Shown here one piece after another: positions 51,099-60,000 of a stretch of 64,000 nucleotides of DNA. Made by a program: the position numbers and the translations under genes. The notes under the pieces are model-generated. The model was not told where the DNA came from, did not search any database, and worked only from the letters and a program-made list of their open reading frames with translations. Numbering within the stretch: position 1 is the stretch's first letter; the number at the start of each line of letters is the position of its first letter. The DNA is from Methanobacteriota archaeon (GTDB lineage Bacteria > Myxococcota > UBA727 > JABDBI01): the NCBI GenBank assembly GCA_013288705.1, contig JABDBI010000008.1:3036-67035 (forward strand), read 5' to 3'.

Positions 51099-52520
51099 TT
51101 ACAGCAGTGCATCCATGACGCTCGCAGCGTCGATCAAGCACACGTGATCGGGTAACTTCATTTTTGGCGGCGAGGGAACAAATAGACCGTAAAGGATCTG
51201 TGCGTTTGGATTGCGATGTATAGGTGGAATGCCTTTAGCGATCAGGCCATTCAAAACGTGTTGAATCGTGGCAGGCTGAACATTTTTGGGAAGAAATTTA
51301 GCCTCGGCGAGCAAGAGCGTTTTGCCATCAAGAGATTCTGCCACAATATCCCATTCGGGCCCTTTTCCGTGCCAAAATCTTCCGGCGGGGCCAAAGTCTA
51401 TGCCACCAAGGCTCGCGCTGAGCGAAGGCACTGCGCTGCGGCATAGTTCTTCCCATGCGCGTCCACACAGCCCTGGAAACCGCTCTTCAAACCATTTTTT
51501 TCGTGGGCCTAGCGGCGACTGTGACAATGTCGACCTTTGTGGGCCTACAGTTTCAAACCAAAATCGCAGAAAAGGATCTTTGATTTTATACAGAGCGCGC
51601 TTGGTTGCATGCTCGGACATATCAAAGGGCACTTCCCGTTCGACCAAGTCAAGTTCCATCAGCTTTGCGAGTGGGCGTGCGAGCGAGGTTGCTGGCAACC
51701 TGAGCCTACTCGCAATTTCGGAAGGCCTACTTGCACCAAGTCCGATAGCGTCGAGAATTGGCCTTACGCTGATGGCCGACGGCGTTTCTTCAAGTAAAAG
51801 CCGGTGCGGCTCCTCATGTAGCGGTCCCATGGCATCCAGCACCAAATTATCTGCTGCGCCGAATAGATCTTGGCCAAAGTCTTCAGCAAGTTCCCAATAC
51901 CGTGGAATTCCCCCCCAAAGTGTATAAGCTTCTACGGCTTTTTGCGCCGTTGACAGCGAGAGAGCAGACTGAATATGGCCTGCCGGTATGGGTGAAAGCT
52001 TGATGAGTTCTTTAGCACGTCCATATAGTGGCGCCGAAGAGTCGAGCACTGCCCCTTGCATCATGCGTTGGCTGGATCCGCAAATAGCAATGATGAGTTT
52101 CGCCGTGGAAGCATCATGATCAATGAAACGCTGCAGAACGCTCGCAAACTCTGGCGAGGTTTCAATCAGATAAGGCAACTCATCAATCACAATGGGCCCG
52201 CGAAAGTTCGCCTGCTTTGCTTGCTTGGCAAGATGCGAAAAAAACACAGTCCAGTGCGGATATTCAACTTGACCAAATCCTGGCAGGCGGGCCTCAAGGG
52301 CTTTTGCAAAGTTGCGTATTTGCAGTGCCATCGCCGATTCATCGGCCACCCAGTAAACGCCATGATGGCGGCGAACCCATTCAAGCAAAAGTCGGGTTTT
52401 ACCGACGCGGCGTCTGCCCCAAATAACGACCAAGCCACCGGATGTTGCTTTCGCAACCCGGTCCAGGCGAGTCAATTCGCGTTCCCGACCAATAAACCTC
52501 ATTATCTTATTATGCACCAA
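51099..52520 (-). CDS. AAA+ ATPase of the Arch_ATPase/ATPase_2 + DUF234 family, copy 1
   Basis: FIGRERELTRLD...VVIWGRRRVGKTRLL (Walker A), IVIDELPYL (Walker B), DUF234-like C-terminal half. Real start is probably the internal ATG (MRFIGRE, about 52502), because the TTG start overlaps an upstream palindrome. Confidence 0.7.
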   Translation of the reverse strand: MVHNKIMRFIGRERELTRLDRVAKATSGGLVVIWGRRRVGKTRLLLEWVRRHHGVYWVADESAMALQIRNFAKALEARLPGFGQVEYPHWTVFFSHLAKQAKQANFRGPIVIDELPYLIETSPEFASVLQRFIDHDASTAKLIIAICGSSQRMMQGAVLDSSAPLYGRAKELIKLSPIPAGHIQSALSLSTAQKAVEAYTLWGGIPRYWELAEDFGQDLFGAADNLVLDAMGPLHEEPHRLLLEETPSAISVRPILDAIGLGASRPSEIASRLRLPATSLARPLAKLMELDLVEREVPFDMSEHATKRALYKIKDPFLRFWFETVGPQRSTLSQSPLGPRKKWFEERFPGLCGRAWEELCRSAVPSLSASLGGIDFGPAGRFWHGKGPEWDIVAESLDGKTLLLAEAKFLPKNVQPATIQHVLNGLIAKGIPPIHRNPNAQILYGLFVPSPPKMKLPDHVCLIDAASVMDALL

Positions 52521-52561
52521 AACATAATGTTTTCAAGCATAATGTTTCTTTGCATAATAAG
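52506..52561. promoter_or_regulatory. palindromic operator-like site upstream of ATPase copy 1 (CTTATTATGCA-N34-TGCATAATAAG with internal CATAATGTTT direct repeats)
   Basis: 11-bp perfect inverted arms seen directly. Coordinates approximate (about +/-1). Confidence 0.5.
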
Positions 52562-52807: not shown

Positions 52808-54742
52808 ATGAGCAAGATAGTAAGAAGCAATCGGTCGTCTATGCTGGGCGCTGTGGCGCTGATTGGCATGGGCTTGGTTTTTAGTGGCAGTAGTTGCCCC
52901 AACAAGAGTAGTACGTCACCTACACCTACGCAGGGCGCAGAGGGTATTACCTTTCCAGGAACGCTGGCGATAGCCACAATTGGTGCTGGTGGTGCCGGGG
53001 TGCAGTTGCCAACGACAGCGACAGATACCCAAAATAACAACGCATTGCTTCCCATTACTTGGTACGTAGCGCCTGCGCCCAACGGTGCGGCAGTCACCAC
53101 TGGCGGATTATTGACAGCGTCATATATCCCTAACGATACGGCCTGTAATACAACAGAAGCTATTTCTGTTACGGGGTCGGCGACATCTGGCGATGGAACA
53201 CGCACGGCGACTGCAACCTATGCTCTGACGGCAGCCAATACCTGGTGCACGATGGCAGCAGTGGCAGGCGATCCCACGGGGGCCAAAGGGCCTCTGGCTA
53301 CCGGTGTGTTTGCGCTAGCCGCTTCAGGTACAGGTCAGGGTATTGGCGGTACTGCGGGTACTCTGAAATTATATGTTGGAACGGTGAGTGGTCTATCGAC
53401 CTACAATGGAGCTACTGGAACATGGTCGGGTATGACGACTGCTCCGGGTCAGCTCGCTGCAAATGCCATTAATATGAATGGCTTGGCAGTAGATAGCACC
53501 GGGACTGTGTGGGTCGCACCAGCCTCGAAGAACCTTCAGAGCTTCAATGGTGCTGCCTGGACGACGTTCGCCGCCAGCATTCCCAATGCCAACGTGACTG
53601 GTGTTGCGATTGATCCATCGAACAATGTGTACATTGGCACAAGCGCAAGTGCGGCCTATCTTCCCAATACTGCCGCGGCCCCGGCGACTACGACAACCGC
53701 ATTTGTGCCATTGCCGACTGTCACTGCGGGCACCACAGTGATCACATTTGATGCAGCCACACCGGTAGATGCATGGTTTGGAGCCTCAGCGGGCGTGCAG
53801 ATTTTTCCAGTAGGCAGTACCGCCACGAGCACGGCCGTGGCAACTGCAACTTTTGCATCCCCGGCTCTTCTTTTGCCCGGCAGGTTTGGCGGCACTGGTA
53901 CGATTGGTGCCCTTTATCGAGATACAAACAACAATATGTGGGTAGGCCAGCAGTTCACATCTCTCAGCGGTTCGCAAGGGCTGGTGTTGAATGTGTACAC
54001 TCCTCCGACGTCTCGCGCTGCAACGGGTGGCACATGGACAAAACTGCCTGTGATTAATTCAACTACCTCAAGTGGCTCAAACACTGTCAATGGCATTGCT
54101 GTTGATGGAAATGGCAATGCATGGATCGCCACAGCAGGCGGTTTGTATCTGTTTCAGCCGACCACGGCGGGTAATTATTCGGCGGGCACATGGACGTCCT
54201 TCCCAGTAAGCTCGAATGGCCAAGAGGGGCCTGTTGGCGTCGCCATCAACGCAATATGGTACGATTCCGGCGCAAGTACTCTATGGATTGGCACAAACGC
54301 AGGTGGTTTGACTCGCTTGTGGCTGCCTGGATATGTGTATCCTGTAACGGCACCAGCGACAACGACCTTTACATGTGTACCCAGCACAACACCAGCAGCA
54401 GCGACTGCGCAAGCGACCTATTGCGGTACATTCACCGTACCGCAAACCGCTGCTGGCGCAACTTATCCGGCAAATCCCGGGTCGGCTGGATGTATCGGTA
54501 CGCTGCCAACGGGCGCAACGGCGGCCGGCAGCGCGTATACCTTGTGCAGTTGGCTTGCAAACACACCAGCAGCTACCACTACTATTAATAGTGTAGCAGT
54601 AGCCAATGGTGCATGCTCGGCCGTTGCCGCTCCAAATTTTGCTGGGTTATGCGCTAGCGCGACCACTTTGGTGAATGCACAGACAACGCCTACTGGCGCT
54701 GCTTGTGGAACGCTGACCGGGAGCATGTGCATACAACAGTAA
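52808..54742 (+). CDS. surface lipoprotein with Reg_prop (two-component regulator propeller) beta-propeller repeats, Thr/Ala/Gly-rich; paralog 1
   Basis: Lipoprotein signal MSKIVRSNRSSMLGAVALIGMGLVFSGSSC. Recurring [VIL]W[VI]G[TS]xxGGLxx[FLY] motifs (VWVAPA, VYIGTS, MWVGQQ, AWIATAGGLYLF, LWIGTNAGGLTRLW). ATG at 52808 with a GGAGAGGA RBS. Confidence 0.6.
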   Translation: MSKIVRSNRSSMLGAVALIGMGLVFSGSSCPNKSSTSPTPTQGAEGITFPGTLAIATIGAGGAGVQLPTTATDTQNNNALLPITWYVAPAPNGAAVTTGGLLTASYIPNDTACNTTEAISVTGSATSGDGTRTATATYALTAANTWCTMAAVAGDPTGAKGPLATGVFALAASGTGQGIGGTAGTLKLYVGTVSGLSTYNGATGTWSGMTTAPGQLAANAINMNGLAVDSTGTVWVAPASKNLQSFNGAAWTTFAASIPNANVTGVAIDPSNNVYIGTSASAAYLPNTAAAPATTTTAFVPLPTVTAGTTVITFDAATPVDAWFGASAGVQIFPVGSTATSTAVATATFASPALLLPGRFGGTGTIGALYRDTNNNMWVGQQFTSLSGSQGLVLNVYTPPTSRAATGGTWTKLPVINSTTSSGSNTVNGIAVDGNGNAWIATAGGLYLFQPTTAGNYSAGTWTSFPVSSNGQEGPVGVAINAIWYDSGASTLWIGTNAGGLTRLWLPGYVYPVTAPATTTFTCVPSTTPAAATAQATYCGTFTVPQTAAGATYPANPGSAGCIGTLPTGATAAGSAYTLCSWLANTPAATTTINSVAVANGACSAVAAPNFAGLCASATTLVNAQTTPTGAACGTLTGSMCIQQ

Positions 54743-54766
54743 GGTATCCATCATAAGGATGCAGAC

Positions 54767-54797
54767 AGCGGGAAGCGTTGGCTTCCCGCTTTTTTTT
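54767..54797 (+). terminator. rho-independent terminator after propeller lipoprotein 1
   Basis: AGCGGGAAGC-gttg-GCTTCCCGCT stem-loop followed by a 7-T tract. Confidence 0.75.
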
Positions 54798-54805
54798 GGC
54801 GTGTG

Positions 54806-54906
54806 GAGAAAGTGTCATCTGAACTAGACAAAAATCAGTGAAAACTGCAAAGTACAGATGACAGCTCGAGAATTTATGAACCTTCAAGAAGCTGCCCGAA
54901 ATCGAT
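54806..54906 (+). repeat. direct repeat R1, copy a (about 100 bp; contains a pseudo 3' end of a DUF234-ATPase gene)
   Basis: About 80% identical to 56784..56882, with an identical 37-bp core gaatttatgaaccttcaagaagctgcccgaaatcgat. The reverse complement of the core encodes ...IDFGQLLEGS*, the C-terminus of ATPase copy 2. Confidence 0.7.
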
Positions 54907-54957
54907 AACCTTGTCGAAATAAATTCACTCAGCTTATCATCCGCAATCAACATTTTG

Positions 54958-55886
54958 CTAGAGGTCAAGCTGTTTGATCCGCTCGCCGATGGTTCGGATA
55001 GTCTCCTCCACTTCTGTAAATGGCGGCAAGTCTTCTGGCTGGAAAACGAACGGTTCCATATCAGGGTTGAAAATTCGGCGAATACGGGCCGTAACATCGC
55101 TTGAATTGCTAAACAACGGTGCTGCCGAAAGTTTGAATTTGGACCATTTCTCACGTGTATTAAGCTCTTCATCGTCTCGCCGAATATTTTGTACCCGCGG
55201 ATAAAAATCCGCGCTGCTTAAAAAATTGGCGACGTCAGTTTGGCGAAGGAGCATCGTCAGGTCATAAAAATGGCGAACCCGAGCCCGTGTTTCCTTGATT
55301 GATGCGCTGCCGTCCATCATACTTGCGTAGAAGAGGGAAAGAATTTTCTCAGCGAACGTTATCCTGTAGTCTAAGACATAAACAAAAATAGGCCCCAGTT
55401 CATATTCTTGAATCACGGATATTGATGTATGGTACGTCGAAATTTCCCCTTTTTGTTTGTGACGCCGTCTTGGACCACTTCCTCGAAAGGCGGTTGCGTT
55501 AACAATTTCGCCATTCTTTTTAGAAGTGCTTCTGTTTGAGACTGAGTGCGAGAGTTTTCTGCTACCGCAAGATCAATGTCTTCGGAAAAACGTCGTACGA
55601 TATTGTAAGCTTTGGAAAGAGAAGTTCCGCCCTTAAATATAATCTCCGCGGATTCCTTGGCTTGACTCAAGCGTTTCAGAATGAGGGTTAGCCAATAGTC
55701 TTTTTCGACGTAAACTTCCCTGATGCCCAAATCCTGGGATGTTGCAGCGATGAGCGTCTGAAAGTCCTGGATGTTCTCGTGCAATTTCAACGTATTCTCC
55801 AAAAGCTTCGATTGGGCAACTGCGCATCTGAAACACCAAATGTGTAAGCAGTCATGGGGTTCAGATCTTTTTTCAACTTCTTCCAT
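54958..55886 (-). pseudogene. AbiEii/AbiGii-family nucleotidyltransferase toxin (type IV TA), disrupted by a frameshift near 55416
   Basis: N-part (55413..55886) has FKGGTSLSKAY...RRFSEDIDL, the AbiEii/DUF1814 NTase motif. The C-part (54958..55416) continues in another frame with a 4-nt overlap. Confidence 0.6.
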
Positions 55887-56500
55887 TGCGGCAACTGCAG
55901 ATTTTGAAGAAGAGCACCTAAGAGTGCGCGAACCGATGGTCTATATGGCTGTGACAAAGTAGTCAGCCTACTTATTTCGCGCGCACTTAATCTCTGCAGA
56001 GAAGTCTTTAGCCTTTGAAGTGTAACGTCGATGCTACCATTAGGTATGCTCTTGAATAGGCGAAGGGTTTCAAGAATATTGGTGAGGGCTGACTCCTCTG
56101 GTTGTGCATCTTTGCTGCCACCGACGATAAATTTGATGCGCAGAGCGCCAACACGACGCGTTCTGTTTGAACGGCTGCCGAGAATCGTGATTTCGCTTGG
56201 AATTTGCGAGCTCACACCGATATCATTTAAAGCAGAAAAGCCAGCAATGTAGCCCCCTGTTTGCTGAAGTAATTTATCGATGATTTGGCCTTCGGACGGC
56301 ATCAATAATCCGAATTGCGTTTTCTGAGCCACATAGTATTGCCCCTTGGATAGCCTTCTTAAGCCACCAGTTTTGCTGAGCCGGCTTAGGTTGAGAGCTA
56401 CCGCCTGAAAATTACCAAGGTCAGCGAAATCTGTGTAATTGAGGATACTGCCCGCAGGAAATTGCGCTATTTTTTCCTTTACTTGTGAAGCAATAGACAT
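55787..56500 (-). CDS. AbiEi-family antitoxin / transcriptional regulator (type IV TA)
   Basis: Position immediately upstream of the NTase toxin and overlapping it; N-terminal wHTH-like region (LSRLSKTGGLRRLSKGQYY). ATG at 56500 with an AGAGGTGG RBS. Family assignment from memory. Confidence 0.5.
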   Translation of the reverse strand: MSIASQVKEKIAQFPAGSILNYTDFADLGNFQAVALNLSRLSKTGGLRRLSKGQYYVAQKTQFGLLMPSEGQIIDKLLQQTGGYIAGFSALNDIGVSSQIPSEITILGSRSNRTRRVGALRIKFIVGGSKDAQPEESALTNILETLRLFKSIPNGSIDVTLQRLKTSLQRLSAREISRLTTLSQPYRPSVRALLGALLQNLQLPQWKKLKKDLNPMTAYTFGVSDAQLPNRSFWRIR

Positions 56501-56527
56501 GACCACCTCTTTTACCAAGGTAGCATA

Positions 56528-56559
56528 ATGATAAGTTTATCGCAATAAAAACTTATCAT
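56528..56559. promoter_or_regulatory. perfect 11-bp inverted repeat ATGATAAGTTT-N10-AAACTTATCAT upstream of the AbiEi start
   Basis: Seen directly, 28-59 nt upstream of the ATG at 56500. AbiEi-family antitoxins are known autoregulators that bind inverted repeats. Confidence 0.5.
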
Positions 56560-56602
56560 CCATAAATCGACATTTTGCTGTTTTGCAGACGATTATGAAT
56601 GC

Positions 56603-56711
56603 CGCCCCGATGGGGCTTCAAAATTAGGGAGGCGTCTTACCTGGGGTTCCCGCGCGCCAAAGCGCACGCGTCCACCCCAGGCTATATTTTGTCACGCCCA
56701 AGGCGTTTAGA
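56603..56711 (+). repeat. direct repeat R2, copy a (109 bp, GC-rich, internally palindromic: CCCCGATGGGG; CCTGGGG...CCCCAGG)
   Basis: 106/109 identical to 58423..58531. Confidence 0.8.
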
Positions 56712-56783
56712 CCTGAAGAAGATCTTCGTCGAGGGGGGTGAAAAAATCTCACCAAATCAAGAAAACATCAATTTGGCGCGCGG

Positions 56784-56882
56784 AAAAGTGTAATCTGGAC
56801 TAGTTAAAAATTAGGGAAAACTGAAAAGTGCAGGTGACGGTTCGGGAATTTATGAACCTTCAAGAAGCTGCCCGAAATCGAT
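56784..56882 (+). repeat. direct repeat R1, copy b (includes the last 11 codons and stop of ATPase copy 2 plus about 65 bp downstream)
   Basis: See R1 copy a. Confidence 0.7.
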
Positions 56883-58305
56883 GATAGAGGCAAAAAAATC
56901 CTGTTGCTCAATCTCGTCATCAATGCCATTGACGTGGATCAGGACTGGCCTTACGGAATAAGCTCGCAATTGCTTTAACCGATCAATTTTTGTCTTTATC
57001 TCCTCAATAACCTCTACACCAACAGGTTTTTTGGAAAATTTTATTTCACACACATACAATGTATTAAATTTTGTCTGTATCATGTAGTCAATCTGACAAC
57101 CCTGGCGGTTCGTGGTCGGTCGCTGAAAGTAGGGGTTCTCAGAAACAATCTCTTCAGCACGTAGCCCCAGTGCCTTATGAATTTCTTTGCGATTATTGAG
57201 CACCAGATTTTCGAACTGCAATCCAAAAATTGTTTGCAACTCAGGCAGGCTACTAATCGATTTTATGGAAAAACTATCCCGCGCAATCTTGGTGTGATAT
57301 TTGGCAATATATTTTAAATAAAAACGTAGATAATTATCGCTTAGACGATATTTACTCAACTTCGAGTCATGCCCACTTTCAATGCGCCAGGTGTAATCTC
57401 GTTTAACAAAGCCGGCCAATGCAAGCTCCTCAAGATACTCACTAAATCTTCCCGTTTGCTTAATCTGTAAAGCGTTACAAATCTCCTGTGGCTCTTTCGA
57501 TCCTGACACCAAGGTTTGTACAATTTCTCGATACAGAGCGCTGTCGCGCAAAAATAAATCTGAAAAAATATTATTAAATTCATTCACCAAAAACCCGCCC
57601 TTTTTAAAGCAAAGATTTCTGATGTTTTCTTCGGCACTCAGCCTGAAGTCTACTTCTTCAAGGTACTTTGGCACACCACCCGTAACGGCAAAAATTTTCA
57701 GCTTTTCGTAGGCAGAGATGTGTTTTGCGCTTGCGCCCCAAAAAAGAGCACAGTCGTTGAGCGAAATCTCTTCAAGCGTTAACGTATATGAAATGCGACC
57801 CAAGAATCCCGTACTGCTCAAGATGTTTTTTTCAATCCATGAAGATGCTGAGCCGCACACAATGAAGATGAGTTGGTCATTTTTTTTAAGATGCTGATCC
57901 CAAAAGTTCTTGATCTTCCCAAGAAACGTTGGATCCTCAGATCCCATCCAAGAAATTTCATCAAACAACAACAACACTTTCCCCGATTTTACTTGCTCAC
58001 TCACAGCCCATAATGCGTCGCCCCAATCGTCATAGCGGGCCTTTGGCGTTTTAAATTGTTGTGCCATCTGGAGGGAAAATTCTTCTAACTGATGCTGAGT
58101 TGTCACATGTTTTTCAGGCGCCAGCCCCATAAAGCTGTAAAATGCATCAAACTGCTTGCCAAACTGCTCAATCAGCCGGCTCTTTCCAATACGCCTTCTG
58201 CCCCGCACCACAATAAATGATGCTGACCTTTTTTTGGTAAAACGTTCAAGTTCTGCAAGTTCTTTTTTTCGCCCAATAAACTGATGGGCCCGTTTTTTTG
58301 ACATA
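56850..58305 (-). CDS. AAA+ ATPase of the Arch_ATPase/ATPase_2 + DUF234 family, copy 2
   Basis: FIGRKKELAELERF...IVVRGRRRIGKSRLI (Walker A), LLFDEISWM (Walker B). Paralogous to 51099..52520. ATG at 58305 (MSKKRAHQF, GGGTGG RBS) preferred; the TTG at 58334 lies inside the upstream palindrome. Confidence 0.7.
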
Positions 58306-58320
58306 GTTACCACCCTATTT

Positions 58321-58412
58321 GGTACTGCAAACAACGATTTTTAATGTTTGCAGTACCAATCTAGCACCTGTCGCTGGTACTGCAAATCACAATTCTTGTT
58401 ATTTTCAGTACC
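58321..58412. promoter_or_regulatory. two tandem palindromic operator-like sites upstream of ATPase copy 2
   Basis: GGTACTGCAAAC-N13-GTTTGCAGTACC (perfect) and GGTACTGCAAAT-N13-ATTTTCAGTACC (one mismatch). Same 12-bp half-site, centres about 55 bp apart, 16-107 nt upstream of the start codon. Confidence 0.6.
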
Positions 58413-58422
58413 GGGTGAGTGT

Positions 58423-58531
58423 CGCCCCGATGGGGCTTCAAAATTGAGGAGGCGTTTTACCTGGGGTTCCCGCGCGCCAAAGCGCACGCGTCCACCCCAG
58501 GCTATATTTTGTCACGCCCAAGGCGTTTAGA
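58423..58531 (+). repeat. direct repeat R2, copy b
   Basis: 106/109 identical to 56603..56711. Confidence 0.8.
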
Positions 58532-58632
58532 ACGGGTCCCAAATTTGCATAGTGCCCATTGATTAGAATTGCCATTACGATGGAGCGGCCACTTGTTTGC
58601 TTTATAGCAGGCCTCTGTATTACGATTGTTCC

Positions 58633-60000
58633 ATGCGTAATTTCCTGCCACTTATCGCCCTATTAGCGGTGCATCTCGTTGCTTGCTCCACGCCCAGCAC
58701 CGTGTTGGACATCAGTGCGCCTGCGGTGATTGGGACAGGCACCAATTCGTCGGTTTCGGTTGATGTTGCGCAAGCGAAGAGTGCTGTTTTTTTGAACTGG
58801 ACCCAAGTGGACACCACTGGGCCACGTGTGACTTGGCTAGCAAATCAACAGGCGGTGAATCCGACGTTTTCTGTGGCTTCGCTTTCAAACTGTAGCGAAG
58901 AAGAACAGGTTACACTGCAAGTGCAGGCAACCGATGCTTTTGGCAACGTGAATGCCTCACAGGTGACGATCGGAGTGAAGGAACTCTGGTGCACCTACAA
59001 GACTCCGGCAGCGAATATGTTGAGCAACATCGTGACTCGGGTTGCTGCCAATAATGGTGTGATCTGGGTCGGTACGGATTCGGGTCTGAATCGCTTTGAT
59101 GGCATTAACTGGCAAGCATTTACCGAGCAAAGCACAGCGTCGATCGCGGGTGGACTCGCGGCCAATCAGGTACGCGCGCTGGCTGTGACATCAAATGACG
59201 ACGTTTGGGTGGCTGTTTATACACCATCTCGCATTTCGACAATTTTTGACACCGTCACGGGGGTGAATGTCTACCACGATAAAACCAAGACCTGGCAACA
59301 TTTCACCAAGGGCGCCAATGAGCTGAATAGCAATACGGTCTATACGCTGGCTCTTGCAGAGCCGGATATGCTTGTGGGGACGGACACAGGCGTAAGTACA
59401 TTTCAATTGGCGACGACAACATGGAGTAGCTATTCAGTTGTTGATAAGGTTAGAGCGATTACGCGTTCGTTAACAAACCAAGATTGGTTAGGCACCGACG
59501 GTGGTGTTTTCGTCTATTCCGATGGCCAAAAAGTGACGCAATATGACAACACTGCCACCGGTGGAGTGCTCGTTAGAAGTTTAATTACCGGCAGCTTTGA
59601 CTTTCGTGCTGCTATTACAGACGGCCAGGGTAGCATCTGGTTTGGCGAAGGCGCAGGTGTCGCGCGTTATCTAGCCCCACAGCTCCAAGGCGGAATTCTT
59701 CCAACCTGGAAGCTCTTCACGGCAGGCGCCGTCGGCGGTGGCCCTGCCAGTAACGATATTCGCGCATTTGCCCTCGACGGCAACGGCAATCTCTGGATCG
59801 CCACAGGTGGCGGATTGAGCACGTTTTTCATTACCGGAGCCAACAAAGGGCAATGGAATTCCTTTTCATCTGACTTGGTCAATACGCCAAATGGTTTGCA
59901 AACCAACGATGTGCGAGATGTCACCTACGACAGCGAAAATAATTACTTATGGATCGGCACAAATGGCGGCGGACTGACGCGGTATTGGCTTGGGGGATAG
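58633..60000 (+). CDS. surface lipoprotein with Reg_prop beta-propeller repeats; paralog 2
   Basis: Lipoprotein signal MRNFLPLIALLAVHLVAC. Motifs VIWVGTDSGLNRFDG, MLVGTDTGVSTF, LWIATGGGLSTFF, LWIGTNGGGLTRYW. Confidence 0.6.
   Translation: MRNFLPLIALLAVHLVACSTPSTVLDISAPAVIGTGTNSSVSVDVAQAKSAVFLNWTQVDTTGPRVTWLANQQAVNPTFSVASLSNCSEEEQVTLQVQATDAFGNVNASQVTIGVKELWCTYKTPAANMLSNIVTRVAANNGVIWVGTDSGLNRFDGINWQAFTEQSTASIAGGLAANQVRALAVTSNDDVWVAVYTPSRISTIFDTVTGVNVYHDKTKTWQHFTKGANELNSNTVYTLALAEPDMLVGTDTGVSTFQLATTTWSSYSVVDKVRAITRSLTNQDWLGTDGGVFVYSDGQKVTQYDNTATGGVLVRSLITGSFDFRAAITDGQGSIWFGEGAGVARYLAPQLQGGILPTWKLFTAGAVGGGPASNDIRAFALDGNGNLWIATGGGLSTFFITGANKGQWNSFSSDLVNTPNGLQTNDVRDVTYDSENNYLWIGTNGGGLTRYWLGG

What the first reader, a model, noticed from the sequence alone, without database searches (positions are those of the whole stretch)
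58321..58412. Two tandem 12-bp-arm palindromes (GGTACTGCAAAC-N13-GTTTGCAGTACC) upstream of ATPase copy 2
A perfect 12/12 palindrome is followed about 55 bp later by an 11/12 copy with the same half-site and spacer length. Both lie over the likely promoter of ATPase2 and in the divergent region toward propeller lipoprotein 2.

This is a classical dimeric-repressor operator pair, possibly binding cooperatively. It also argues that the annotated TTG start at 58334 is wrong and the ATG at 58305 is used.

ATPase1 has an analogous but unrelated-sequence palindrome (CTTATTATGCA-N34-TGCATAATAAG, about 52506..52561). Each paralog may therefore carry its own specificity.
Basis: seen in the sequence. Interest (0 to 1): 0.55.

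Follow-up and report, generated by a model that had tools for sequence, protein, structure and literature searches.

The report
Self-operator pair of an ATPase-nuclease gene
The two palindromes are real and most likely are the binding sites through which an uncharacterised ATPase-nuclease (a candidate phage-defence protein) controls its own promoter. Relatives in dozens of other bacteria keep the same layout but have changed the DNA letters in step with the protein's DNA-reading helix.

Summary
The window carries a perfect 12/12 palindrome (58321-58357) and an 11/12 copy (58376-412), 55 bp apart. The exact half-site occurs nowhere else in the 64 kb.

The palindromes lie 16-109 nt upstream of the ATG (58304) of ATPase2. 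This 484-aa protein has an NTPase domain, a winged helix (wHTH) and a PD-(D/E)xK-like C-terminus, and matches PADLOC candidate PDC-S27.

In 79 orthologous loci (53-84% identical proteins, mostly from intracellular bacteria) the upstream layout recurs:
- The unit is TGG-N5-YAAA-N14-TTTR-N5-CCA, usually in two copies 54-55 bp apart.
- A -35 (TTTACA) sits inside the distal unit, followed by a 17-nt spacer.
- A -10 abuts the proximal unit.

The N5 core differs between orthologs and tracks residues 283-286 at the start of the wHTH recognition helix. Arg286 goes with G3 in 48 of 48 cases. The same pairings recur in separate clades.

Neighbouring genes are not conserved, and arm mismatches show no RNA-helix bias. 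The sites are not a dispersed repeat.

Best reading: tandem operators bound by ATPase2 itself, probably for autorepression. Binding and the sign of regulation are inferred, not shown.

The anti-phage role of the family is unproven.

The parts
58320..58358 (-). Proximal operator unit O1. It reads TGGTACTGCAAA, 15 nt, TTTGCAGTACCA, with perfect dyad symmetry. It is predicted to span about -7 to +31 of the ATPase2 promoter.
   Evidence: The same position and architecture appear in orthologues. The -10 box abuts it.
58375..58413 (-). Distal operator unit O2. On the + strand it reads TGGTACTGCAAA, 15 nt, TTTTCAGTACCG. Its promoter-proximal arm (58375-58386) is a perfect half-site and contains the -35 box.
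58381..58386 (-). Predicted -35 hexamer TTTGCA (4/6 match to TTGACA), inside O2.
   Evidence: for the sequence. In one search this position reads TTTACA-like in 42 unit pairs, with a 5/6 match in 21 of 42. The promoter scan did not call this weak promoter.
58358..58363 (-). Predicted -10 hexamer TAGATT (4/6), 17 nt after the -35. Its last T is the first base of O1.
   Evidence: The spacer is 17 nt in 33 of 42 orthologous unit pairs. A is at position 2 in 35 of 42, and T at position 6 in 37 of 42.
58310..58315 (-). Shine-Dalgarno sequence GGGTGG, 5 nt upstream of the ATG.
56850..58304 (-). ATPase2 coding sequence, 484 aa. It has an AAA+/STAND-like NTPase domain (1-250), a wHTH (helices 256-265, 272-278, 287-296; wing 300-321) and a PD-(D/E)xK-like C-terminal domain (D406, E420, K422). 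It matches PADLOC PDC-S27.
58416..58535 (+). Upstream copy of a 120-bp direct repeat that flanks the cassette. It contains a GC-rich hairpin (58460-58501).
   Evidence: 113 of 120 identical to 56596-56715, offset 1820 bp. There is a sub-threshold Rfam hit to Acido-Lenti-1.
56596..56715 (+). Downstream copy of the 120-bp direct repeat.
56560..56602 (-). Degenerate relic of an ATPase-type operator unit (TCGTCTGCAAAA-CAGCAAAATGTCGA-TTTATGGATGAT), between the repeat and the DUF6088/AbiEi-like gene.
   Evidence: It aligns with O2 at about 65% identity.

Best explanation
The two palindromes are tandem operator sites for the product of the adjacent gene, ATPase2.

Each 38-39-bp unit holds two inverted 12-bp half-sites (TGG-TACTG-CAAA). 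Each half-site is read by the winged-helix domain of one ATPase2 subunit. Residues 283-286 (Q-T-G-R), at the N-terminus of the recognition helix, contact the variable core, and Arg286 contacts the G at half-site position 3.

A weak sigma-70 promoter is interleaved with the sites. Its -35 (TTTGCA) lies in the promoter-proximal arm of the distal unit. Its -10 (TAGATT) ends on the first base of the proximal unit, so transcription should start inside the proximal unit.

Occupancy of both units, probably as a dimer of dimers, would therefore occlude RNA polymerase. That would keep expression of this ATPase-nuclease low and self-limiting, which is negative autoregulation. The distal unit is centred near -43, a position from which activation at low occupancy is also possible.

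Shown here: the sites, their family-wide conservation of layout, their exclusive linkage to the ATPase gene, the conserved promoter boxes, and the covariation between wHTH residues and half-site bases.

Inferred: physical binding, stoichiometry, the transcription start, and the sign of regulation.
For: 1. The sites are real and non-random.

2. The layout is conserved. 67 of 79 orthologous upstream regions have at least one such inverted-repeat unit and 46 of 79 have at least two, against 13% and 1% of shuffled sequences. Half-sites sit at about -102, -76, -48 and -22 from the ATG with alternating orientation. The consensus is TGG-N5-YAAA-N14-TTTR-N5-CCA.

3. The sites go with the gene, not the neighbourhood.
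- The 81%-identical orthologue has the same half-site downstream of murC.
- DNA homology with L004 and L005 covers only 58387..56862.
- There is no conserved flanking gene in about 74 loci, and no propeller homologue at any other locus.
- The locus-specific half-site is found within 200 nt upstream in 68 of 68 loci, in the coding sequence in 6 of 68, and within 400 nt downstream in 4 of 68.

4. The promoter is conserved. The -35, a 17-nt spacer and the -10 sit at fixed register in 42 unit pairs. A plasmid homologue with 44% identity keeps the layout.

5. Protein and DNA covary.
- The best of all protein-column by DNA-position pairs is residue 286 with DNA position 3 (normalised mutual information 0.80). 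Residues 283, 284, 281 and 272 follow.
- Arg286 goes with G3 in 48 of 48 loci, and 15 of 17 non-Arg loci lack G3.
- T/S284 goes with TAC, H284 with AGAC, and G284 with ..CC.
- On a tree built without the wHTH, these pairings recur in 2 to 4 or more separate clades.
- The structure model places 283-286 at the turn and N-cap of wHTH helix 3.

6. The fold resembles STAND/ORC NTPase-WHD proteins, including the transcription factor MalT.
Against: - There is no experimental binding or transcription-start data.
- The window's own hexamers are weak (4/6 and 4/6), and the generic promoter scan found none.
- After regressing out overall protein distance, residues 284 and 286 rank 4th and 6th of 273 columns, not 1st. 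Phylogenetic confounding is therefore reduced but not eliminated.
- Half-site centres are about 26 bp apart (about 2.5 helical turns). This puts the two wHTH domains on opposite DNA faces, which is unusual for a simple dimeric repressor.
- The inner spacer is also partly conserved (AAATCGACAwwTGTCGATTT). One wHTH cannot account for this, so another domain, possibly the nuclease, may also engage the site.
Confidence: 0.72

Rival explanations
1. The palindromes are primarily substrates or assembly platforms for the enzyme, and only secondarily regulatory. The wHTH domains dock on the outer half-sites, and a PD-(D/E)xK nuclease dimer sits over the conserved A/T-rich centre. There, ATP-dependent oligomerisation, nicking or cleavage takes place. 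This could drive cassette recombination or mobility, abortive self-cleavage, or exclusion of incoming DNA carrying the same site.
For: - The catalytic D406, E420 and K422 and the Walker A/B residues are invariant.
- The centre of the unit is conserved (positions 13-26, A-W-W-T core) beyond what one wHTH can contact.
- Half-sites 26 bp apart would leave room for a central domain.
- The gene is patchy, multi-copy and 53-84% identical across phyla.
- Relic operator units without a gene exist in the window (56560-56602), in L087 and in L049.
- The cassette here is flanked by 120-bp direct repeats and has low GC.
Against: - Sites are found on one side of the gene only, so they are not terminal repeats.
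- The register with the -35 and -10 boxes is what is conserved, and regulation explains that directly.
- Intact palindromes persist next to an intact nuclease gene in almost all loci, which argues against frequent cleavage.
- No recombinase is present.
Confidence: 0.12
2. The palindromes act as nucleic-acid hairpins, not protein sites. They could form a 5'-UTR stem-loop that stabilises the mRNA or masks the ribosome-binding site, or cruciforms or terminators for neighbouring genes.
For: - Both units fold well as single strands (DNA fold -27.6 kcal/mol, z = -8.5).
- The predicted 5'-UTR retains an 8-bp stem next to the Shine-Dalgarno sequence.
- Arm-to-arm covariation across orthologues would also be expected for a conserved helix.
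Against: - Among 170 arm mismatches in 91 units, only 42 are G:U-compatible on the sense strand, against 69 A:C and 59 others. There is no selection for RNA pairing.
- The distal unit lies upstream of the conserved promoter and would not be transcribed.
- The predicted start falls inside the left arm, which truncates the stem (z only -1.97).
- No T-tract follows the stems, and there is no credible Rfam family match.
- A hairpin does not explain covariation with wHTH residues.
Confidence: 0.05
3. A different regulator binds the sites. Candidates are the neighbouring AbiEi-like (DUF6088) protein, a host factor, or a regulator shared with the divergent propeller-lipoprotein gene.
For: - AbiEi-type proteins are wHTH autoregulators (own knowledge), and one is encoded 330 bp downstream of the ATPase2 stop codon.
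- The sites lie in a divergent intergenic region.
Against: - Orthologous loci keep the sites but have no AbiE genes, no propeller genes and no other conserved neighbour.
- The DUF6088 gene has its own, different palindrome at 56528-56559.
- The half-site core covaries with the ATPase's own wHTH.
- The lipoprotein ATG (58634) is more than 220 bp from the nearest unit.
Confidence: 0.04
4. The palindromes are a chance occurrence or a dispersed repeat of the REP/MITE type.
For: None beyond the hairpin-like appearance.
Against: - There are no other exact half-sites in the window.
- Only 8 exact palindromes of this type were found in the metagenome collection and none in viral contigs. Two of the 8 are ATPase-linked, and the other six are unrelated long hairpins.
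- The layout is conserved upstream of orthologues.
Confidence: 0.01

Closest known systems
Controller (C) protein operators of restriction-modification systems (C-boxes OL/OR); comparison from own knowledge
   Same: Two tandem palindromic operators are interleaved with the -35 and -10 of the regulator's own promoter. The purpose is to keep a potentially toxic nuclease under tight, self-limiting control. Operator specificity differs between families, so co-resident systems do not cross-talk.
   Different: C proteins are small (~80 aa) HTH dimers encoded separately from the nuclease, and their half-sites are on the same DNA face within an approximately 35-bp C-box. Here the presumed regulator is the 484-aa ATPase-wHTH-nuclease itself. 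The units are 38-39 bp with half-sites about 26 bp apart, and the units repeat every 55 bp.
STAND-type transcription factors such as MalT (structure 8bob appears in the fold search)
   Same: An NTPase, helical domain and winged-helix core is coupled to sequence-specific binding at repeated promoter sites. Oligomerisation is likely to depend on nucleotide.
   Different: MalT uses a C-terminal LuxR-type HTH and a sensor domain, activates other operons and has no nuclease. ATPase2 has no sensor repeats, has a PD-(D/E)xK-like C-terminus, and its only conserved sites are at its own promoter.
PADLOC phage-defence candidate PDC-S27 (ATPase_2 / DUF234 superfamily)
   Same: ATPase2 matches the PDC-S27 model over its full length (E = 6e-93). 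PDC-S27 is described as an ATPase fused to a PD-(D/E)xK domain (PMC12988326).
   Different: In the papers found here, nothing is reported about its regulation or DNA specificity. Its defence role is unvalidated. One representative tested in E. coli B against T4, T5 and T7 was not among the protective systems (bioRxiv 10.1101/2024.09.26.614923).
AbiEi antitoxin autoregulation (type IV toxin-antitoxin system); own knowledge
   Same: A wHTH protein binds inverted repeats in its own promoter with negative autoregulation. An AbiEi-like gene with its own palindrome sits next door (56528-56559).
   Different: The protein family and the palindrome sequence are different. AbiE is absent from the orthologous ATPase loci.
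Archaeal Orc1/Cdc6 with origin recognition boxes next to its gene
   Same: An ORC-like AAA+ and WHD fold with inverted repeats around an A/T-rich centre, immediately upstream of the gene.
   Different: The repeats are locked in register with a sigma-70 promoter. There is no sustained GC-skew switch. The protein carries a nuclease domain, and no replication genes are linked.

Membership tests
Promoter-overlapping autoregulatory operator of an HTH protein | Dyad-symmetric sites, repeated | tested here: met
   12/12 and 11/12 inverted repeats 55 bp apart.
Promoter-overlapping autoregulatory operator of an HTH protein | Sites overlap the core promoter of the regulator's own gene | tested here: met
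   The -35 lies in the distal right arm, followed by a 17-nt spacer, and the -10 ends on the first base of the proximal unit, in 42 orthologous unit pairs. The window has TTTGCA-17-TAGATT. The transcription start is not mapped, and the generic scan found no strong promoter.
Promoter-overlapping autoregulatory operator of an HTH protein | Cis-linkage of site and regulator gene across genomes, independent of neighbours | tested here: met
Promoter-overlapping autoregulatory operator of an HTH protein | Site sequence covaries with DNA-reading residues of the regulator | tested here: met
   Arg286 goes with G3 in 48 of 48 loci. Residue 284 tracks the core triplet. The pairings recur in separate clades.
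Promoter-overlapping autoregulatory operator of an HTH protein | Physical binding and effect on transcription | not testable with these tools
   Needs EMSA or footprinting and reporter assays.
PADLOC PDC-S27 / Pfam ATPase_2 (PF01637) ATPase-nuclease | Full-length profile match | tested here: met
   PDLC04984, E = 6.1e-93, residues 8-478. PF01637, E = 1.2e-15.
PADLOC PDC-S27 / Pfam ATPase_2 (PF01637) ATPase-nuclease | Walker A/B motifs and PD-(D/E)xK catalytic residues conserved | tested here: met
   G35-S42, D115/E116 and D406, E420, K422 are invariant in 24 sequences. The C-terminus has an alpha-beta-beta-beta-alpha-beta arrangement in the model.
PADLOC PDC-S27 / Pfam ATPase_2 (PF01637) ATPase-nuclease | Anti-phage activity | not testable with these tools
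   From the literature, it is unvalidated (PMC12988326) and was not protective in one heterologous test (10.1101/2024.09.26.614923).
Pfam DUF234 (PF03008) domain in ATPase2 | Pfam hit at or above the gathering score | tested here: not met
   ATPase2 has no PF03008 hit, whereas ATPase1 does (E = 2.8e-8). The ATPase2 C-terminus is PD-(D/E)xK-like by motif and fold only.
REP / MITE dispersed repeat | Many copies at unrelated loci | tested here: not met
Intrinsic terminator or structured RNA | T-tract after the stem; pairing kept through G:U and compensatory changes on the transcribed strand; Rfam match | tested here: not met
Transposon terminal inverted repeats | Related repeats at both ends of the mobile unit | tested here: not met
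   Half-sites occur downstream of the gene in only 4 of 68 loci.
Origin of replication with ORC-like initiator | Initiator-adjacent repeats around an unwinding element, with a strand-skew switch | tested here: inconclusive
   The fold is ORC/STAND-like and the unit centre is A/T-rich. There is no sustained skew switch, and the repeats are in register with a promoter.

The most novel reading that the evidence does not exclude
The wHTH and half-site pair is a reprogrammable specificity module that aims an ATP-driven PD-(D/E)xK nuclease. The promoter palindromes would then be both the operator and the enzyme's cognate target. On this reading the one-gene cassette works in one of two ways. It could be a sequence-specific exclusion or restriction-like system whose specificity diversifies under conflict. 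Or it could be a self-mobilising single-gene element that spreads among intracellular bacteria. The relic operator units and the 120-bp flanking repeats would be footprints of its turnover.
Probability: 0.12. Interest if true: 0.8.

Novelty: new variant of a known kind. Interest (0 to 1): 0.55.

Why it matters
PDC-S27-type ATPase-nucleases are among the most widespread candidate defence genes in bacteria and archaea (PMC12988326), yet they have no known activity, ligand or regulation.

The analysis gives a concrete and testable handle. It predicts that these proteins are sequence-specific DNA binders and names the site, TGG-N5-YAAA in inverted pairs. It also names the residues that read it (283-286, with Arg286 contacting G3). 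And it predicts that specificity can be swapped by exchanging a few residues together with the operator core.

The analysis also shows a natural set of mutually orthogonal protein-operator pairs, with at least 20 different cores. This is of interest for understanding how paralogues avoid cross-talk and as a source of parts for synthetic regulation.

If the sites also turn out to be nuclease targets, the family would be a new kind of self-guarded, programmable nuclease.

Tried and rejected
- **Generic sigma-70 scan of 58100-58750.** It found no promoter. The weak TTTGCA-17-TAGATT promoter was recognised only from the family-wide register.
- **Exact GTACTG core upstream of orthologues.** It is present in only a few loci. 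This led to the finding that the core is variable, not absent.
- **First inverted-repeat caller.** It mixed intra-unit and inter-unit dyads, giving centre spacings of 27 bp. It was replaced by a template-anchored caller.
- **RNA-hairpin reading.** Rejected on mismatch spectrum and position.
- **REP/MITE reading.** Rejected.
- **Terminal-repeat or transposon reading.** Rejected.
- **Co-regulation with the propeller lipoprotein, or a conserved partner gene.** Rejected.
- **Sequence search against solved structures.** No hit.
- **NCBIfam.** No family for ATPase2.
- **Literature searches for DUF234, PF01637 and PDC-S27.** They gave only fold predictions and census papers, and nothing on operators.
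- **Partial-Mantel control.** It left some non-wHTH columns (168, 336, 234, 338) scoring as high as 284 and 286. The covariation claim therefore rests mainly on position-specific pairings that recur in separate clades.

Full report
**1. The observation**

The + strand of the window reads TT-GGTACTGCAAAC-AACGATTTTTAAT-GTTTGCAGTACC-AA at 58319-58359. This is a perfect inverted repeat of 12-nt arms with a 13-nt spacer, extendable to 15-nt arms. At 58376-58412 lies GGTACTGCAAAT-N13-ATTTTCAGTACC, which matches 11/12. The two are 55 bp apart start to start.

The 11-mer half-site occurs exactly three times, and once with one mismatch, all inside this 92-bp stretch. Every other match in the 64 kb has one or two mismatches and is scattered.

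The adjacent gene is on the minus strand. The longest ORF starts at a TTG at 58334, inside the palindrome. An ATG at 58304 (not 58305) is preceded by GGGTGG at a distance of 5 nt. It gives a 484-aa protein identical to a deposited sequence and collinear with all orthologues from residue 1.

**2. The gene**

ATPase2 (56850-58304, minus strand) matches Pfam ATPase_2 (PF01637). Unlike ATPase1, it has no Pfam DUF234 hit.

An alignment of 24 homologues shows invariant Walker A (GRRRxGKS) and Walker B (DE) motifs and an invariant D406...E420-x-K422 motif.

An AlphaFold model (mean pLDDT 76) shows three parts:
- an NTPase domain;
- a winged helix, with helices at 256-265, 272-278 and 287-296 and a beta-hairpin wing at 300-321;
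- an alpha/beta C-terminal domain of PD-(D/E)xK type.

Foldseek finds the Pyrococcus Walker-type ATPase 2qen first, followed by plant NLR resistosomes, ORC/Cdc6 and MalT. This is the STAND/ORC 'NTPase plus winged helix' architecture.

The protein matches the PADLOC candidate PDC-S27 over its full length (E = 6e-93). The literature describes PDC-S27 as an ATPase fused to a PD-(D/E)xK domain. It is abundant in bacteria and archaea and not experimentally validated (PMC12988326). One representative tested in E. coli B against T4, T5 and T7 was not among the protective candidates (bioRxiv 10.1101/2024.09.26.614923). Steczkiewicz et al. list DUF234 among PD-(D/E)XK families (PMC3424549).

**3. Relatives**

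More than 7,500 homologues were found, and the top 120 are 61-84% identical. A genome scan returned 80 loci, almost all from host-associated or predatory lineages:
- Wolbachia, Rickettsiales and Midichloriaceae;
- Legionellales, Coxiella and Francisellaceae;
- Chlamydiae and Dependentiae;
- Bdellovibrionota and Oligoflexia.

There are often two or three copies per genome. The flanking genes differ from locus to locus: murC, SHMT, an outer-membrane protein and others. Clustering of all flanking ORFs found no conserved partner, only occasional extra ATPase paralogues and Wolbachia synteny. None of these loci has a homologue of the window's propeller lipoproteins.

**4. The key result: a family-wide upstream layout with a variable core**

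The 81%-identical orthologue lies in a different context, after murC. It has TTTGGTACTGTAAAT-N12-ATTTGCAGTACCAAA just before its ATG, and a further half-site upstream.

Across 79 upstream regions:
- 67 contain at least one inverted repeat with 11-nt arms and a 12-16-nt spacer, and 46 contain at least two. The figures for shuffled sequences are 13% and 1%.
- Half-sites alternate in orientation at about -102(+), -76(-), -48(+) and -22(-) from the ATG.
- The unit consensus is TGG-N5-YAAA-[TCGACAwwTGTCGA]-TTTR-N5-CCA, 38 bp long, repeated every 54-55 bp and occasionally present in three copies.

The five central bases of the half-site differ between orthologues. Cores seen include TACTG, ATCCG, AGACA, AGTTG, AAGTG, AGAAG, AGGTT, AATTG, TGCCA and GACTT.

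The locus-specific half-site is found within 200 nt upstream in 68 of 68 loci. It is found in the coding sequence in only 6, within 400 nt downstream in 4, and between -1500 and -200 in 3. DNA homology between the window and its closest relatives covers only 58387..56862. That span is the -35-bearing arm, the proximal unit and the gene.

**5. Relation to the promoter**

In 42 adjacent unit pairs:
- The first six bases of the distal unit's right arm read TTTACA-like, with 21 of 42 matching TTGACA at 5/6.
- A 17-nt spacer follows in 33 of 42.
- Then comes a TAtAAT-like hexamer, with at least 4/6 matches in 31 of 42, A at position 2 in 35 and T at position 6 in 37. Its last T is the first base of the proximal unit.

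The window fits this register with TTTGCA (58386..58381), 17 nt, and TAGATT (58363..58358). The generic scanner missed this weak promoter.

Transcription should therefore start inside the left arm of the proximal unit, near 58351. The proximal unit spans about -7 to +31, and the distal unit is centred near -43. A plasmid homologue with only 44% identity (Desulfosarcina) keeps TTGACA-17-CATTAT-TGGTGTCGTAAA.

In many loci the -35-bearing arm stays close to TTTACAACTCCA even when the other three arms have a different core. This is as expected if promoter function constrains that arm.

**6. Who binds the sites**

Mutual information between every variable protein column and every variable half-site position peaks at residue 286 with DNA position 3 (normalised 0.80). 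Residue 284 with positions 4-6 and residues 283, 281 and 272 follow. All of these lie in the helix 2, turn, helix 3 region of the winged helix.

The table and the counts show the following.

| Protein residue | Half-site feature | Residue and feature | Residue, no feature | Feature, other residue | Neither |
|---|---|---|---|---|---|
| Arg286 | G at position 3 | 48 | 0 | 2 | 15 |
| Thr/Ser284 | TAC core | 20 | 6 | 1 | 38 |
| His284 | AGAC | 10 | 2 | 0 | 53 |
| Gly284 | CC at positions 6-7 | 8 | 1 | 3 | 53 |

A neighbour-joining tree was built with the whole winged helix excluded. On it, the window's combination (QT-G-R with TGGTACTG) occurs in two separate places. The window, L004 and L005 nest among ATCC/Gly284 loci, while L049 lies in the other half of the tree. 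His284 with AGAC occurs in at least four clades, and Gly284 with ..CC in at least three.

A partial-Mantel control that regresses out overall protein distance ranks residues 284 and 286 4th and 6th of 273 columns. The signal is therefore strong but not free of phylogenetic structure. Together with the absence of any conserved neighbouring gene, this makes the ATPase's own winged helix the most likely reader of the palindromes.

**7. Rivals**

*RNA or DNA hairpin.* The units fold well, but four points argue against a hairpin role.
- Arm mismatches are not biased towards G:U on the sense strand: 42 are G:U-compatible, 69 are A:C and 59 are others.
- The distal unit is upstream of the promoter.
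- The predicted start truncates the proximal stem.
- There is no T-tract or credible Rfam family match.

*Dispersed repeat.* The metagenome collection holds only 8 exact palindromes of this type and the viral collection none. Two of the 8 have the family layout and sit next to an ATPase2-like gene (L089) or a 29-codon relic of one (L087). The other six are unrelated long hairpins.

*AbiEi or another regulator.* The sites persist without AbiE, and the AbiEi-like gene has its own, different palindrome.

*Enzyme substrate or assembly platform.* This is not excluded. The centre of the unit is conserved beyond the reach of one wHTH. The half-sites lie about 2.5 turns apart. The nuclease residues are invariant. 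Operator relics and flanking repeats point to cassette turnover. However, sites occur on one side of the gene only and are locked to the promoter register.

**8. ATPase1**

The paralogue at 51099-52502 is 25% identical to ATPase2. It has DUF234 and MarR-like hits, and its deposited product is 467 aa from the ATG at 52502.

Four orthologues (55-59% identical, from Chlamydiae and others) share ATTATGC / ACATAATG / GCATAAT repeats at the same place. This subfamily therefore also carries a cognate upstream element, with a sequence unrelated to that of ATPase2. Among these five loci the sequence is conserved rather than variable.

**9. Context in the window**

The ATPase2 cassette and the adjacent AbiE-like genes lie in a low-GC stretch: 0.43-0.45 over 55-59 kb, against 0.51-0.53 around it.

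The cassette is bracketed by 120-bp direct repeats at 56596-56715 and 58416-58535, which are 113/120 identical and offset by 1820 bp. A degenerate operator-unit relic sits next to the downstream copy. This looks like recombination or replacement among cassettes and was not pursued further.

**10. Verdict**

The palindromes are a genuine, conserved cis-element. Most probably they are a pair of operators through which a PDC-S27-type ATPase-nuclease regulates its own promoter.

The mechanism is of a known kind. What is not described in the papers found here is threefold. First, the regulator is a STAND-like ATPase-nuclease acting on its own gene. Second, the geometry is unusual. Third, there is a family-wide diversification of the operator core in step with a few recognition-helix residues.

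Binding, the transcription start and the sign of regulation remain to be shown.

Noticed in passing
window 56596-56715 and 58416-58535: A 120-bp direct repeat (113/120 identical, offset 1820 bp) brackets the ATPase2 gene together with its operators. It contains a GC-rich hairpin (58460-58501) with a sub-threshold Rfam hit to Acido-Lenti-1 (28.4 bits against a gathering score of 37). It could be an att-like footprint of cassette insertion or a leftover of a tandem duplication.
   Followed up: partly
window 56560-56602: A degenerate relic of an ATPase-type operator unit (TCGTCTGCAAAA-N14-TTTATGGATGAT) lies between the downstream repeat copy and the DUF6088 gene. It aligns with the distal palindrome at about 65% identity. 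This suggests that an earlier ATPase cassette was replaced by the AbiE module.
   Followed up: partly
window 56528-56559: A separate palindrome, ATGATAAGTTT-N10-AAACTTATCAT, lies immediately upstream of the DUF6088 (AbiEi-like) gene start at 56518. It is followed by TATGCT and a Shine-Dalgarno sequence. It is probably that gene's own operator.
   Followed up: no
window 54690-55886: The AbiEii toxin gene looks fragmented. One ORF of 157 aa (55413-55886) covers only profile positions 2-75 of 238. A second ORF of 160 aa (54690-55172) has no Pfam hit. This may be a pseudogene.
   Followed up: no
window 52502-52561; L092-L095 around 1400-1500: ATPase1 and four orthologues (55-59% identical) share upstream ATTATGC / ACATAATG / GCATAAT repeats that end 3-30 nt before the start codon. 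In this subfamily the motif sequence is conserved, not hypervariable. In the window it ends 3 nt before the ATG, leaving no room for a Shine-Dalgarno sequence.
   Followed up: partly
window 55000-59000: GC content drops to 0.43-0.45 over the AbiE-like genes and ATPase2, against 0.51-0.53 on both sides. This is consistent with a horizontally acquired islet. ATPase1 lies in DNA of normal GC content.
   Followed up: no
L049 4689-4781; L087 1700-1900: Operator-unit pairs occur without an intact ATPase gene. In L049 two units, which are mirror images of each other, lie about 270 bp downstream of the ATPase gene. In L087 two units precede only the first 29 codons of an ATPase. These are relics that point to frequent gain and loss of the cassette.
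   Followed up: partly
loci L022, L035, L042, L043, L058, L061, L065, L068 at about -76 from the ATG: The half-site that carries the -35 box stays close to TTTACAACTCCA even when the other three half-sites of the same locus have a different core. The distal unit is therefore often a hybrid site. It could be a deliberately weaker operator or an ancestral state.
   Followed up: no
L033 1243-2707 and L077 977-2438: A second ATPase paralogue lies directly next to the first in these loci. In the genomes represented by two or three loci, the paralogues whose half-site could be read have different cores. This fits orthogonal specificities, though it is not statistically significant on its own.
   Followed up: no
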